A DNA stretch of 64,000 nucleotides. It comes from Lytechinus pictus (lineage: Eukaryota). Position numbers: made by a program. Below, one piece after another: positions 51,001-54,000 of the stretch; position 1 is the first letter of the stretch; each line of letters begins with the position of its first letter. The stretch is taken from positions 19,344,001-19,408,000 of the forward strand of contig NC_087247.1 of the NCBI RefSeq assembly GCF_037042905.1. Direction: 5' to 3'.

Positions 51001-54000
51001 TTACTGGTATTTATTAACATTTTCGGAATTTCGGAGCCGGGGCGTTCTAATGACCCCCCCCCCCCCCTCCCTCCATGACCACCGTTTCGCGATGTATGAT
51101 TCTTCGTATTTTAGTAGTAAACTTTTTTATACAAAACTTTAATTTTGTGTTAGATTTTGAAATAAAATTCAGAAAATGTTATCACATTCCACGCTCTTTT
51201 CTTTCCCGGTTTCAACCTTTTCTTGGTCTCGAAACTTTGGGGGTCCATGTCCCGTGCCCCACCCCATCTGTCTGCTTTGGATGAAGGGTGAACTATCCTG
51301 CAAAGTTCAACGGGTTTAGAGGAGAGGGCGCGCCACAGATTATCTGAGAAGATCGTATCATGGACCTGTAGTCGATCCATGATCGTATTGATTCCTTTCT
51401 GTGATCGGCGTATCAATTTGATAAAGATCAGGGCTTTCCCCAAGATTTTTACAAATAAGTCTTAAAAACATCAAGTTGTTTTTACCCATTAAACTATTTG
51501 CAAAATATATGAGATAAATATTTCATCTACATAATTAGTTTTAGCGTTGACAAAACTTTCTCACTCTCTATAACAGTCCTACATTAACCATTACATACAT
51601 GAACAACAAAACAGATGCAGTGCAAAGTTGCACAATCTTGCTTCATTCTAATATCCAAGAGCTATCACAAAGCCATATTACTTAAGGCAAAGGTAAAGTT
51701 TAACCTACAAAAAGGGCTATATTTCCCAATTGATCAATCGTGATCCTCAATCAGTAATTGTTATTAACATTTTGGCATAGTTTTGTAAGCCGTATTATAC
51801 AGGACGCAAAAAATGGAATCATCCTACTAAAGGTGACTAAGACACACGGTGTTTGTAAGTACACTGCCATCTGCAGAAGCAGATACTTGGACAGACGGAA
51901 GTACGCTAGAGGATGTCTCCACTTCGTGTTTAAAGACAGGATCGTGGCTTGATCGGGAACAGATAAAGATGCCTTTGAGTGCTTTACGTACGAAACCCTG
52001 GATTCCTGGCAGTGTAGATGAAAGGATTCACGCACGAGTTGAAGTAAGCCAGGTTTTGGAAGGAACGTTGCAGTGGACTCCGATGGTAATTCCTGGTAGT
52101 GCTGAACCCCATACTTACGCAGAAGTAGGCAATCTGAGACGGTGCCCAGCAAATGATGAATACAACTATGACAATAAGCATCATCTTGAGAACGCGAGTA
52201 CGAGCTTTAAGATGATTTGATCGCTTACCAGCTGTGACCGATCCTTCTGTTAGGATCTTGGAGAAATGTTGGGCCTCTCGGTAAAGTTTCTTGGCTATTA
52301 GAATTTGGGTGAGAAGGATAAATACAGTAGGCAAACCAATGCGAAGACAGAGGATGTAAGCAGCATAGGCCATGTCGCCTTCGACGGAAAATCCTCTGCG
52401 AACGCACCGTCCAGTGAGGTCTTTAACATAGAACACAAAGATGCCCCTGCTTCCTGCGAGCATGAACGTCAACCAAACAAGAGCTGTACAAATATACGCT
52501 CGCCGCTTTGTGACCATGCGATTGAAAATGACAGGATGGACAACCGCGAAGTAGCGGTCGAAACATATGGCGACAAGTTGATAAGAAGATACTGTGATTA
52601 GCATCCATTGTAACATAGGAGAAGAGATGAAGATACAATAGAGACGTCCCGCAACACTCGAAGGCATTGTTTGAGCTTTCGGGTGGGGAATCATCACGAT
52701 GGATAACAAGAAATCTGCAAGGGCTAGATTGCCCACCAGGATGTCAGTGGAGCGTCTGGAGGATTTCTTCCAGAACACCACAAGGATGACTAGGAAGTTC
52801 CCCAGTATCCCAAGAATCGCATAAACCATCTGTAAGATGACCCACCAAGGCCATTCCATTGTTGACCAAGACCATTGAAATAAAGTCTTTGGTTGCATTT
52901 CTTCGGAGCGGTCTTCCTCGTAAGTATAATTTAATAAAAAGTCGGAGGAGAGATCATCGTTGCTTAAAACATTTGAAATTGTGGTGAAGATGAATTCGTT
53001 TGGTCGACCCGTTGATTCTTTGCCAGTGCTATGTGCGAATGGACTTGATCCTGGAGAGGCCGATGTTCCTCCGAGACGAAGCGTTGATTTGTTTGTGGCC
53101 AGGGATTCATCTTTAACCAACACCAGGTAGATAATTGTGGAATAGAATTTGAAATTCATCTTCAATCATGGTAAAATACGTCCTCCTGATGAAATAAAAA
53201 AGAAAAATAATATTAAAAAGATAATTTCATTTCTTAGCTCGAATGAAAATCTTTATAAACAAGACACCGATATCCAATTTCGGGGATCGTTTCTGTTTGT
53301 TGTAATTAATTTCATAACACTTCTTTCAGGGCCGTAGCCAGAAGCATTTTGTTGGGGGGTGTACCAGCTAAATTTGCCAACTAAATTTGGCGTGACCGCG
53401 CCAACGTGAGCACAGGGGAGTCTGATGGGGGATGTGCCCCCCCCCCCACAATAATCACATGCTAAAAGATTTTGAATTTTTAAAATTGAATTAGTGGCAT
53501 TTGGTGAATACTTTAAGGTAAATTATACAAAGATATTTGCACTTTAAAAATGAACATTTTGGATCAAAATAGAAAGGCTAGTGTGCCGTAGTTGCTAACT
53601 TGCAGTATAATGATATACCCTATGCATTAATAATATCAAAATCAAAGATTTGTTAATTTTTAATTGACCTTAATTCTGTGCAAGATGTCTCAACTAAAAT
53701 TTCAAGAGTGCTACTGCTAACAGTGGCGTACAGTGGGTCACGGCATGGGGGGGGGGCACCAGCAAAAATTTAGAGTCATTAAGTGGGCGCGCGAAGCGCG
53801 CTCAATTGCCAGGTATACTGACCTGATAGAGACATTTTAAGGACTGTGCCATTAAACGGATATGTATCTTAATGATCAAATAATGCGAGCGCGAAGTGCG
53901 AGCTGAAAATGTTCTATATTCAGTCCTAAAAAGGGACATTATAAGCAAGTTTTGTAATCATGATACGTACCTGTCTTACAAAACAAACAATGCGAGCGCG

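What the first reader, a model, noticed from the sequence alone, without database searches (positions are those of the whole stretch)
51900..53000. Cassette-like mosaic receptors: copies 5 and 1 are patchworks of the two specificity types
Seen: copy 5 is copy-3-like but has a copy-4 tract at ~52659-52791 (WKKSS, LALAD, PHPKA, including silent sites), copy-4 bases at 51919 and ~52028, and copy-2 states in the N-terminus (TTISN, NYTYEED). Copy 1 has a 2/3-type TM3-TM5 but 4-type ICL3 (KPSIH), ECL3 (AKMxFGTARNY) and tail (VFGHEV). Inference: short-tract gene conversion recombines loop modules combinatorially, which would diversify the receptor repertoire.
Basis: partly seen in the sequence, partly recalled or inferred. 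Interest (0 to 1): 0.65.

Follow-up and report, generated by a model that had tools for sequence, protein, structure and literature searches.

The report
Gene conversion patches in urchin receptor array
Five tandem copies of a sea-urchin-specific receptor gene have swapped short stretches of DNA by ordinary gene conversion between neighbours, which is real but expected for such gene arrays, and the two patchwork copies are themselves damaged.

Summary
The window holds five tandem, single-exon rhodopsin-type GPCR genes of Lytechinus pictus on the minus strand (c1-c5). c5 equals c3 at 52 of 52 variable sites downstream of the tract. At 52659-52791 it equals c4 at 11 of 11 variable sites, four of them silent. 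The patch is non-random: clustering P=0.0004, PHI P=0.0005, GENECONV-like P=0.0002. c1 is also a mosaic. It is 1% from c2 across TM3-TM5 but 9-10% on both sides. However, its ICL3/ECL3 is not "type 4". There it is equidistant from c3 and c4 and closest to a sixth L. pictus copy, so the motifs it shares with c4 are retained ancestral states.

Best explanation: ordinary non-allelic (interlocus) gene conversion between tandem paralogues, with a 112-166 bp tract. The "cassette-like combinatorial diversification" reading is not supported. The window has no silent donor fragments. c5 carries a 4-bp duplication that stops it inside helix 8. c1 has lost its N-terminal region. Elsewhere conversion mostly homogenises.

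Read-level phasing and a possible falsely duplicated haplotype (c3/c5) could not be checked. Interest is low.

The parts
51984..53159 (-). c5: 391-codon ORF of a 7tm_1 GPCR. It is c3-like overall and ends prematurely.
   Evidence: (PF00001, 137 bits)
52659..52791 (-). c4-like conversion tract in c5, covering the end of TM1, ICL1, TM2 and ECL1. Minimum 52659-52770; maximum 52646-52811.
   Evidence: (c4-c5 0/133, c3-c5 11/133)
51989..51992 (-). 4-bp tandem duplication (cgta cgta) found only in c5. It shifts the frame and gives a stop right after ...NPGFRT, inside helix 8.
51830..51988 (-). Out-of-frame remnant of the c5 helix 8 and C-tail, otherwise intact (92% identical to the c4 tail).
   Evidence: tblastn
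52029..52029 (-). Isolated base shared by c5 and c4 only (silent, V377). c3 has a private base; c1 and c2 have a third state.
51919..51919 (-). Isolated base shared by c5 and c4 only (Q/E413), downstream of the c5 frameshift.
52927..52978 (-). Two c2-like bases in c5 (I61, Y78). A tract here could be at most 52823-53057.
40856..42187 (-). c4: intact 443-codon gene of the divergent type. It is the neighbour of c5 and the likely donor; 41687-41819 is the stretch homologous to the tract.
24661..25989 (-). c3: intact 442-codon gene, the recent duplicate partner of c5.
10944..12257 (-). c2: intact 437-codon gene of the c2/c3/c5 type.
810..1895 (-). c1: ORF from an internal Met just before TM1, with a distinct C-tail that resembles L. 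variegatus XP_041460893.
1261..1722 (-). Block of c1 homogenised with the c2/c3/c5 type (ECL1 end to TM5). c1-c2 differ at 4/421 here, against 13/123 and 18/181 in the flanks.
1896..2122 (-). Decayed N-terminal region of c1: TAA stop, 2-bp insertion, 30-bp deletion, and start codon and leader missing.
16442..38557 (.). First copy of a ~27.1-kb-period segmental duplication; contains c3.
43546..63652 (.). Second copy of the duplication (97.6-99.3% identical); contains c5.
41824..42423 (-). ~600-bp 5' block (upstream region plus N-terminal ectodomain) of low divergence among c2-c5. Its c2 counterpart is 11894-12492.

Best explanation
The locus is a tandem array of single-exon, echinoid-specific rhodopsin-type GPCR genes in Lytechinus pictus. 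It evolves by duplication plus non-allelic (interlocus) gene conversion.

c3 and c5 are the products of a recent ~27-kb duplication. Afterwards a non-crossover repair event copied 112-166 bp from the adjacent c4-type gene, or from its near-identical twin just outside the window, into c5. This replaced ICL1, TM2 and ECL1. A separate, larger event (~460 bp) overwrote TM3-TM5 of the old, ancestral-like copy c1 with the c2/c3-type sequence of its neighbour. A ~600-bp 5' block has been homogenised among c2-c5.

What is shown: the mosaic sequence patterns, their statistical significance, and the co-transfer of silent and non-coding sites.

What is inferred: the mechanism (germline homologous repair between misaligned paralogues), the direction c4 to c5, and that the events are neutral by-products rather than a diversification device.
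For: - Array and family: PF00001, 126-141 bits; named L. pictus RefSeq proteins.
- The duplication pairing c3 with c5.
- c5 tract: c5=c4 at 11 of 11 variable sites and c5=c3 at 52 of 52 variable sites downstream. c4-c5 differ at 0/133 in the tract against 29/421 next door (Fisher P=0.0005).
- Clustering P=0.0004, PHI P=0.0005, GENECONV-like P=0.0002.
- 4 of the 10 transferred bases are synonymous.
- K132 and H159 are confined to the c4 type. The L. variegatus, S. purpuratus and other L. pictus sequences have N and R/L there, and c5 carries them.
- Outside the tract, 4 of 7 c5-derived changes also match a state present in c2 or c4 (crude binomial P=1.3e-5).
- c1: c1-c2 differ at 4/421 in TM3-TM5 against 18/181 and 13/123 in the flanks (Fisher P=5e-7 and 2e-6). 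dS is 0.010 against 0.096 and 0.098.
- Partition trees: in TM3-TM5, c1 falls within the c2/c3/c5 clade (support 96/91). In ICL3-TM7 that clade is rejected (p-AU 0.015).
- The 5' block: 8 mismatches in about 600 bp, including non-coding bases, against 8-15 per 150 bp around it.
- The tract length fits known IGC. The median GENECONV track in human segmental duplications is 198 bp, and tandem high-identity duplicates are the commonest substrate (passages of PMC3790853).
Against: - No reads were available, so the haplotype was not seen on a single molecule.
- The direction is not proven. c3 could instead have been overwritten by a c2-type tract while c5 kept an older c4-like state. Finding 0 differences in 166 bp is only mildly unlikely under that view.
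- No independent record carries the c5 combination. All 11 members of the two 90% clusters were read, and only the window's own c5 has it.
- The array differs from what an apparently older set of L. pictus RefSeq proteins implies, which includes an extra c4-like 437-aa gene. The region is therefore either structurally polymorphic or hard to assemble.
- PHI and the GENECONV-like test were my own scripts, not the published programs.
- The groups tested were named after I had seen the alignment.
Confidence: 0.8

Rival explanations
1. Assembly or consensus chimera. The c5 sequence mixes reads from c3-like and c4-like copies because of collapsed or mis-polished repeats, so no real molecule carries the mosaic.
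For: The region is repetitive: 27-kb duplicates are 98-99% identical. N runs interrupt it. An apparently older set of RefSeq proteins implies a different copy arrangement.
Against: The switch must occur twice, inside stretches of only 20 bp (52792-52811) and 13 bp (52646-52658) that the c3-type and c4-type sequences share. That is shorter than assembler k-mers and far shorter than reads (inference). c4 differs from c5 at 29/421 bases immediately downstream, and none of those leaked in. c4 and c5 lie on one N-free stretch.
Confidence: 0.07
2. c3 and c5 are two haplotypes of one locus that the assembly placed in tandem (false duplication). The c4-like tract and the 4-bp frameshift would then be allelic variants. 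The tract would still have arisen by conversion from c4, but as a segregating polymorphism.
For: The blocks are only about 1% diverged: 101/9289 overall and about 49 of 7500 outside the paralogously aligned upstream part. Both copies run into an N run at the homologous place. A near-identical second c4 (P0001, one residue different) exists on the same chromosome record, as expected if a c3+c4 unit appears twice. From memory, sea urchins are highly heterozygous.
Against: The junctions 38557/43546 lie inside an N-free stretch. L. pictus has more named paralogues than L. variegatus in both annotation sets. Read depth was not available.
Confidence: 0.25
3. Parallel or convergent substitution. Selection drove c5 to the same loop residues as c4 without DNA transfer.
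For: The changed residues lie in loops and TM2. dN/dS between the types is high, 0.64 overall and 0.8-1.1 in TM3-ECL3.
Against: Four synonymous sites changed to exactly the c4 bases, and all ten changes are contiguous. The permutation tests argue against scatter.
Confidence: 0.01
4. Hybrid genes formed by unequal crossing-over (reciprocal recombination) during array expansion, rather than non-crossover conversion. This applies especially to c1.
For: Array copy number clearly changes by unequal exchange. The c1 tail is of a different, older kind that resembles L. variegatus XP_041460893.
Against: Both mosaics have two junctions with the resident lineage on both sides: c5 within 166 bp, and c1 over 462 bp flanked by 9-10% divergence on each side. 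A single crossover gives one junction.
Confidence: 0.08
5. One reading: a cassette-like system in which loop modules are shuffled combinatorially to diversify the receptor repertoire, as a selected function that may be frequent or somatic.
For: There are several independent patches. Other named L. pictus records show further combinations. For example, 6 of the 8 differences between a c2-like record and c2 are states of other copies, and H406 is shared by three paralogues. dN/dS is near 1 in the ligand-facing parts.
Against: There are no silent or partial donor cassettes in 64 kb. Both mosaic copies carry disabling lesions. The larger tracts homogenise rather than diversify. Five copies give little combinatorial room. 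No evidence of any kind bears on somatic events.
Confidence: 0.03

Closest known systems
Interlocus (non-allelic) gene conversion in tandem duplicates, e.g. vertebrate olfactory-receptor and opsin clusters
   Same: Short, non-reciprocal patches between nearby high-identity paralogues, detected as runs of identity against the overall site pattern. Tract length is in the usual range. [quoted passage not shown] The start of the PMC4467073 abstract (listing) gives the definition.
   Different: A different, echinoid-specific GPCR lineage and a different phylum. My searches listed no paper on conversion in sea-urchin GPCR arrays (titles and abstract starts only).
[quoted passage not shown]
   Same: Rhodopsin-type, expanded within echinoids, and lying in tandem arrays. 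These are putative chemoreceptors with no known ligand (passages of PMC5442662, and PMC7042368). Here, hits at 36% identity or more come only from echinoids. L. variegatus has 3 named genes and L. pictus at least 7.
   Different: Membership in the published groups A-F was not tested because those sequences were not at hand. This sub-cluster is small. It also has an unusual ~100-residue, low-confidence N-terminal extension.
SpTransformer (Sp185/333) immune genes of sea urchins
   Same: [quoted passage not shown]
   Different: SpTrf mosaics are presence/absence patterns of 25-27 sequence elements, with flanking GA repeats. Here the copies are collinear and differ only by base substitutions within patches. 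I did not look for flanking GA repeats around these genes.
Programmed cassette conversion (chicken Ig pseudo-V genes, pilin or VSG antigenic variation; recalled, not looked up)
   Same: New variants are made by copying short tracts from paralogous donors.
   Different: Those systems have banks of silent donors and one expressed acceptor, and they act at high frequency. The window has no silent donors, and the patched copies are the damaged ones.

Membership tests
Rhodopsin-type (class A) GPCR, Pfam 7tm_1 | Match to PF00001 above the gathering score | tested here: met
   141.4, 137.2 and 126.1 bits for c4, c5 and c1, against a cut-off of 30.5
Rhodopsin-type (class A) GPCR, Pfam 7tm_1 | Seven transmembrane helices plus helix 8 | tested here: met
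   AF2 model of c4: helices 105-130, 137-155, 169-207, 218-242, 259-306, 315-349, 362-385 and H8 387-398. Core pLDDT is 72-92; the whole-chain mean is 67.6.
Rhodopsin-type (class A) GPCR, Pfam 7tm_1 | Canonical motifs (GN in TM1, LAxxD in TM2, DRY, CWxP, NPxxY; motif list recalled) | tested here: met
   GNFLV, LAL[AV]D, FDRY, CWAP and NPFIY are present in all five copies
Allatostatin-A / galanin receptor family (the RefSeq name) | Specific closest similarity to allatostatin-A or galanin receptors outside echinoderms | tested here: not met
   The best non-echinoderm hits are CCK-, QRFP- and AKH/corazonin-type receptors at 24-28% identity. The best solved structure is the CCK-A receptor (E 2.6e-23); galanin R1 scores 6.6e-20 among many class A receptors. 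Near-identical paralogues carry five different automatic names.
surreal-GPCRs | Lineage-specific expansion within echinoids, in tandem arrays | tested here: met
   Five copies in 53 kb. More named L. pictus copies exist, and L. variegatus has 3. Many Diadema paralogues lie at about 40% identity.
surreal-GPCRs | Placement in the published groups A-F by phylogeny | not testable with these tools
   The group sequences (Raible et al. 2006, recalled; cited in PMC7042368) were not available.
surreal-GPCRs | Expression in tube feet, pedicellariae or other exposed tissues | not testable with these tools
Interlocus gene conversion | A run of identity between two paralogues longer than the overall site pattern allows | tested here: met
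   c4-c5: 11 consecutive concordant sites of 114, P=0.0002, Bonferroni 0.0012. c1 against c2/c3/c5: P=0.0002-0.0004. PHI P=0.0005.
Interlocus gene conversion | Two breakpoints with the acceptor's own lineage on both sides | tested here: met
   c5 is identical to c3 from 52792 up to the private c3 site at 52913, and from 52658 down to 52030. c1 is 9-10% from c2 on both sides of the 1% block.
Interlocus gene conversion | Silent and non-coding sites transferred with the replacements | tested here: met
   4 synonymous sites of 10 in the c5 tract. c1 dS is 0.010 against 0.096-0.098. The 5' block includes about 235 bp upstream of the ATG.
Interlocus gene conversion | Non-reciprocal: the donor keeps its own sequence | tested here: inconclusive
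   c4 still has its own tract. However, the donor could be the unseen near-identical copy (P0001), and the direction is inferred.
Interlocus gene conversion | Mosaic haplotype present on single DNA molecules | not testable with these tools
   No reads.
Programmed cassette diversification | A bank of silent or partial donor copies | tested here: not met
   blastn and tblastn of c4 against the window find only the five genes and the decayed c1 N-terminal remnant.
Programmed cassette diversification | High-frequency or somatic events at an expressed acceptor | not testable with these tools
   This needs sperm/somatic and population sequencing.

The most novel reading that the evidence does not exclude
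Frequent, still-ongoing interlocus conversion in this echinoid-specific GPCR cluster creates many mosaic alleles that segregate in L. pictus. Individuals would then carry different receptor combinations, a chemoreceptor counterpart of the SpTransformer mosaics, with selection keeping the ligand-facing TM3-ECL3 types apart. Hints: the other named L. pictus records differ from the window copies mostly at sites where they take another copy's state (6 of 8 for the c2-like record, 3 of 6 for the c4-like record). One variant, H406, sits in three paralogues of that set and in none of the window's.
Probability: 0.15. Interest if true: 0.5.

Novelty: new member of a known kind. Interest (0 to 1): 0.25.

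Why it matters
This is a clean, well-bounded example of interlocus gene conversion in a sea-urchin-specific GPCR array. Practical consequences:
- Gene trees and orthology calls for these receptors will mislead unless the genes are partitioned. c1, c4 and c5 each change partners along the gene.
- The automatic names (allatostatin-A, galanin, QRFP, trissin, PrRP receptor-like) should not be taken as ligand assignments.
- The locus is a place where assemblies of this heterozygous species may disagree.

It does not reveal a new mechanism.

Tried and rejected
- I looked for silent donor fragments of the gene elsewhere in the window with blastn (word size 11) and tblastn. There are none beyond the five copies.
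- I scanned 12 of the 48 stop-to-stop ORFs of 110 aa or more against Pfam, picking longer intergenic ones away from the N runs. 0 of 12 matched, so no transposase or other gene explains the array.
It is also contradicted by equal c1-c3 and c1-c4 distances. In ICL3-TM7 a c1+c4 clade is neither supported nor rejected (p-AU 0.14).
- Base changes in the tract show no GC bias: by eye, 5 AT-to-GC, 4 GC-to-AT and 1 transversion between A and T. I dropped this line.
- dN/dS never clearly exceeds 1 (maximum 1.16, on 22 differences), so I make no claim of positive selection.
- I searched for an independent record of the c5 mosaic among the members of the two 90% clusters (11 of 11 read). None was found.
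- Literature searches for gene conversion in sea-urchin GPCRs listed nothing on the topic. I saw only titles and abstract starts.
- Not used: genome contigs (prokaryotes only, so not relevant), fold search, complex prediction, and the representative-protein scan.
The published surreal-GPCR group lists may sit in supplements.
- The window is sea urchin, not human.
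Full report
**What is in the window.**
ORF listing under the standard code gives five long ORFs on the minus strand:
- c1 at 810-1895
- c2 at 10944-12257
- c3 at 24661-25989
- c4 at 40856-42187
- c5 at 51984-53159

The three copies scanned (c1, c4, c5) match Pfam 7tm_1 far above its cut-off. Exact and near-exact matches to named RefSeq proteins place the window in Lytechinus pictus, on an 82.4-Mb chromosome record. The genes are single uninterrupted ORFs, so no spliced model was needed or built. The window is not human. Three N runs (28127-28409, 30172-30383, 55281-55436) were left untouched.

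**What kind of receptor.**
- An AlphaFold model of c4, built from 32 aligned sequences, shows seven helices and helix 8. The core is confident; the first ~90 residues and the C-tail are disordered.
- The RefSeq names (allatostatin-A, galanin 2a, QRFP-like, trissin and PrRP receptor-like for near-identical paralogues) are automatic.
- Outside echinoderms the best hits are CCK/QRFP/AKH-type receptors at 24-28% identity. The best solved structure is the CCK-A receptor at E 2.6e-23, among hundreds of class A receptors.
- Hits at 36% identity or more are all echinoid.
- This fits the "surreal-GPCR" picture of lineage-specific, tandemly arrayed, orphan sea-urchin receptors (passages of PMC5442662, and PMC7042368). 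Placement in the published groups could not be tested.

**Array structure.**
- A self-comparison shows a tandem segmental duplication. Block 16442-38557 matches 43546-63652 at 97.6-99.3% identity, with a period of about 27.1 kb. c3 and c5 are therefore the recent pair, and c4 lies between them, 11 kb from c5.
- A protein that differs from the window's c4 by one residue (XP_054750118.2) sits on the same chromosome record. It is probably the c4 counterpart of the second unit, just beyond the window. This is inference.
- c4 and c5 lie on one N-free stretch (30384-55280). c1-c3 lie on another (1-28126).

**The c5 patch.**
- In a five-way alignment, c5 equals c3 at 52 of 52 variable sites from 52645 to 52063. 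It equals c4 at 11 of 11 variable sites from 52791 to 52659.
- The neighbouring c4-private sites 52812 and 52645 are not shared by c5. The tract is therefore 112-133 bp at least and 166 bp at most.
- It changes W130, K132, A148, H159 and K161, at the end of TM1, in ICL1, TM2 and ECL1.
- Four of the ten transferred bases are synonymous.
- c4 and c5 differ at 0/133 bases in the tract and 29/421 in the next segment. c3 and c5 differ at 11/133 and 0/421.

**Statistics for the c5 patch.**
- Over the 9.3-kb c3/c5 block there are 101 mismatches in 9289 bases. The densest 133-bp window is the tract, with 11 (permutation P=0.0004). This is conservative, because the upstream 1.8 kb of that alignment pairs non-equivalent repeats and inflates the background.
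- My PHI implementation gives P=0.0005 with five copies and 30 informative sites, P=0.001 for c2-c5, and P=0.0045 for the CDS only.
- My GENECONV-like permutation gives P=0.0002 (Bonferroni 0.0012) for the c4-c5 fragment.
- By comparison with L. variegatus, S. purpuratus and a sixth L. pictus copy, K132 and H159 are confined to the c4 type, and c5 has both. This favours transfer from a c4-type gene into c5.
- The opposite history, in which c3 was overwritten by a c2-type tract, is not excluded.

**Smaller patches in c5.**
Over 1723 aligned columns the c3/c5 differences break down as follows:
- 10 where c5 equals c4 only
- 1 where c5 equals c4 and c2 has a third base
- 2 where c5 equals c2 only (52978 and 52927)
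- 3 classed as private to c3 (one of them, 52791, is also the c1 base)
- 3 private to c5

Outside the main tract, 4 of 7 c5-derived changes reproduce a state present in another copy (crude binomial P=1.3e-5). I61 also occurs in the sixth L. pictus copy and Y78 in an L. variegatus gene.

**c5 is damaged.**
A 4-bp tandem duplication at 51989-51992, found only in c5, shifts the frame and gives a stop after ...NPGFRT. That is residue 391, inside helix 8 (387-398) of the model. The rest of the tail is still recognisable out of frame. If the duplication is real, the mosaic copy lacks most of helix 8 and the C-tail and is probably a recent pseudogene. That conclusion is inference.

**c1.**
- The c1 N-terminal region has decayed. 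The start codon and leader are gone, and there is a TAA stop, a 2-bp insertion and a 30-bp deletion. The ORF starts at a Met eight residues before TM1.
- c1 is a real mosaic. It differs from c2 at 4/421 bases in TM3-TM5 but at 13/123 and 18/181 in the segments on either side (Fisher P=2e-6 and 5e-7). dS shows the same contrast: 0.010 against 0.098 and 0.096. The homogenised block is about 1261-1722.
- In a protein tree of TM3-TM5, c1 sits in the c2/c3/c5 clade (support 96/91), while c4 groups with two L. variegatus genes (95/96). In ICL3-TM7 the c1+c2/c3/c5 clade is rejected (p-AU 0.015) and c1 sits on the unresolved backbone. These groups were named after I had seen the alignment.
c1 is as far from c4 as from c3 there (16/181 each). 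Its nearest proteins are an older c1-like record (1/103), the sixth L. pictus copy (3/103) and L. variegatus XP_041460895 (7/103), with c3 at 10 and c4 at 11. No c1-c4 fragment is significant.
- KPS.H, AKMGF and VFGHE-like states are shared with L. variegatus genes, so they are retained ancestral states. The distal c1 tail resembles L. variegatus XP_041460893.

**Homogenisation elsewhere.**
Between c2 and c4, a block of about 600 bp (c2 11894-12492) covers roughly 235 bp upstream of the ATG and the N-terminal ectodomain. It has 8 mismatches, against 8-15 per 150 bp in the body and 8-9 per 150 bp further upstream. Exchange in this array therefore mostly erases differences. The TM3-ECL3 part stays divergent between the c4 type and the c2/c3/c5 type (6-12%). 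dN/dS there is 0.8-1.1, not clearly above 1.

**Mechanism.**
The pattern is what non-allelic gene conversion between tandem paralogues produces:
- two junctions close together
- silent and non-coding sites carried along
- the donor apparently unchanged

A cassette system would need silent donors, and the window has none.

**Could it be an artefact?**
- A consensus chimera would have to switch templates inside 20-bp and 13-bp shared stretches while importing none of the 29 c4 differences just downstream. I consider this unlikely, but it is not tested.
- A more serious caveat is that the 27-kb duplicate could be two haplotypes placed in tandem. The tract would then be an allelic, segregating conversion.
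- An apparently older set of named L. pictus proteins (XP_0547501xx.1) implies a different arrangement, with an extra c4-like gene that ends like c2. It shows further patchwork. For example, a c2-like record differs from c2 at 8 residues, 6 of which are states of other copies. H406 is present in three paralogues of that set and in none of the window's copies.
- None of those records has the c5 combination (11 of 11 cluster members read).

**Comparison and novelty.**
- The closest known phenomenon is interlocus gene conversion in chemoreceptor and opsin clusters.
- The closest gene family is the surreal-GPCRs.
- The closest sea-urchin analogue of "mosaic genes" is SpTransformer. Its mosaics are element presence/absence patterns (passages of PMC8634487), unlike the collinear base-substitution patches here.
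- My searches listed no paper on conversion in sea-urchin GPCR arrays (titles and abstract starts only).
- I rate this a new member of a known kind, of low interest.

**Not checked.** Reads, population data, expression, L. variegatus DNA, the copies outside the window, supplementary files, and the closed contig collections.

Noticed in passing
window 51989-51992: A 4-bp tandem duplication (cgta cgta), found only in c5, truncates the receptor inside helix 8.
   Followed up: yes
window 1896-2122: The region upstream of the c1 ORF is a decayed copy of the N-terminal ectodomain: TAA stop, frameshift, 30-bp deletion, and start codon and leader replaced by unrelated sequence.
   Followed up: yes
window 16442-38557 and 43546-63652: A tandem segmental duplication with a ~27.1-kb period and 97.6-99.3% identity. 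Both copies run into an N run at the homologous place. It may be a true duplication or two haplotypes placed in tandem.
   Followed up: partly
window 28494-30171: The short stretch between two N runs is 99.3% identical to 53604-55280 and 95.7% identical to 26442-28110. The region upstream of c3 therefore appears to hold this ~1.7-kb element twice, and the region upstream of c5 once.
   Followed up: no
window 11894-12492 / 41824-42423 (and the same part of c3 and c5): A ~600-bp block spanning the upstream region and the N-terminal ectodomain is only about 1-2% diverged among c2-c5, while the gene bodies and outer flanks are 5-12% diverged.
   Followed up: partly
window 13797-14068 and 16042-16265: Two arrays of a 21-bp minisatellite lie in opposite orientation about 2 kb apart, between c2 and c3. 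They may be the ends of a mobile element.
   Followed up: no
window 32942-33262 and 58008-58370: 42-bp tandem repeats are followed directly by their reverse complement (a palindromic arrangement). They occur in both copies of the segmental duplication.
   Followed up: no
window 20080-20409 and 47241-47570: 41/82-bp tandem repeat arrays occur at equivalent places in both duplication copies.
   Followed up: no
named L. pictus proteins P0068, P0069, P0073: Three different paralogues of an apparently older annotation set share H at residue 406, where every window copy has P. This looks like a variant spread among paralogues within one haplotype.
   Followed up: partly
proteins: Near-identical paralogues of this cluster carry five different automatic receptor names: allatostatin-A, galanin 2a, QRFP-like, trissin and prolactin-releasing peptide receptor-like. 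None is backed by specific similarity.
   Followed up: partly
c4 residues 1-90 (window ~41918-42187): All full-length copies have a ~100-residue N-terminal extension with a hydrophobic leader and NxS/T sites. The model gives it pLDDT below 50. It is conserved in L. variegatus but much shorter in the S. purpuratus record.
   Followed up: no
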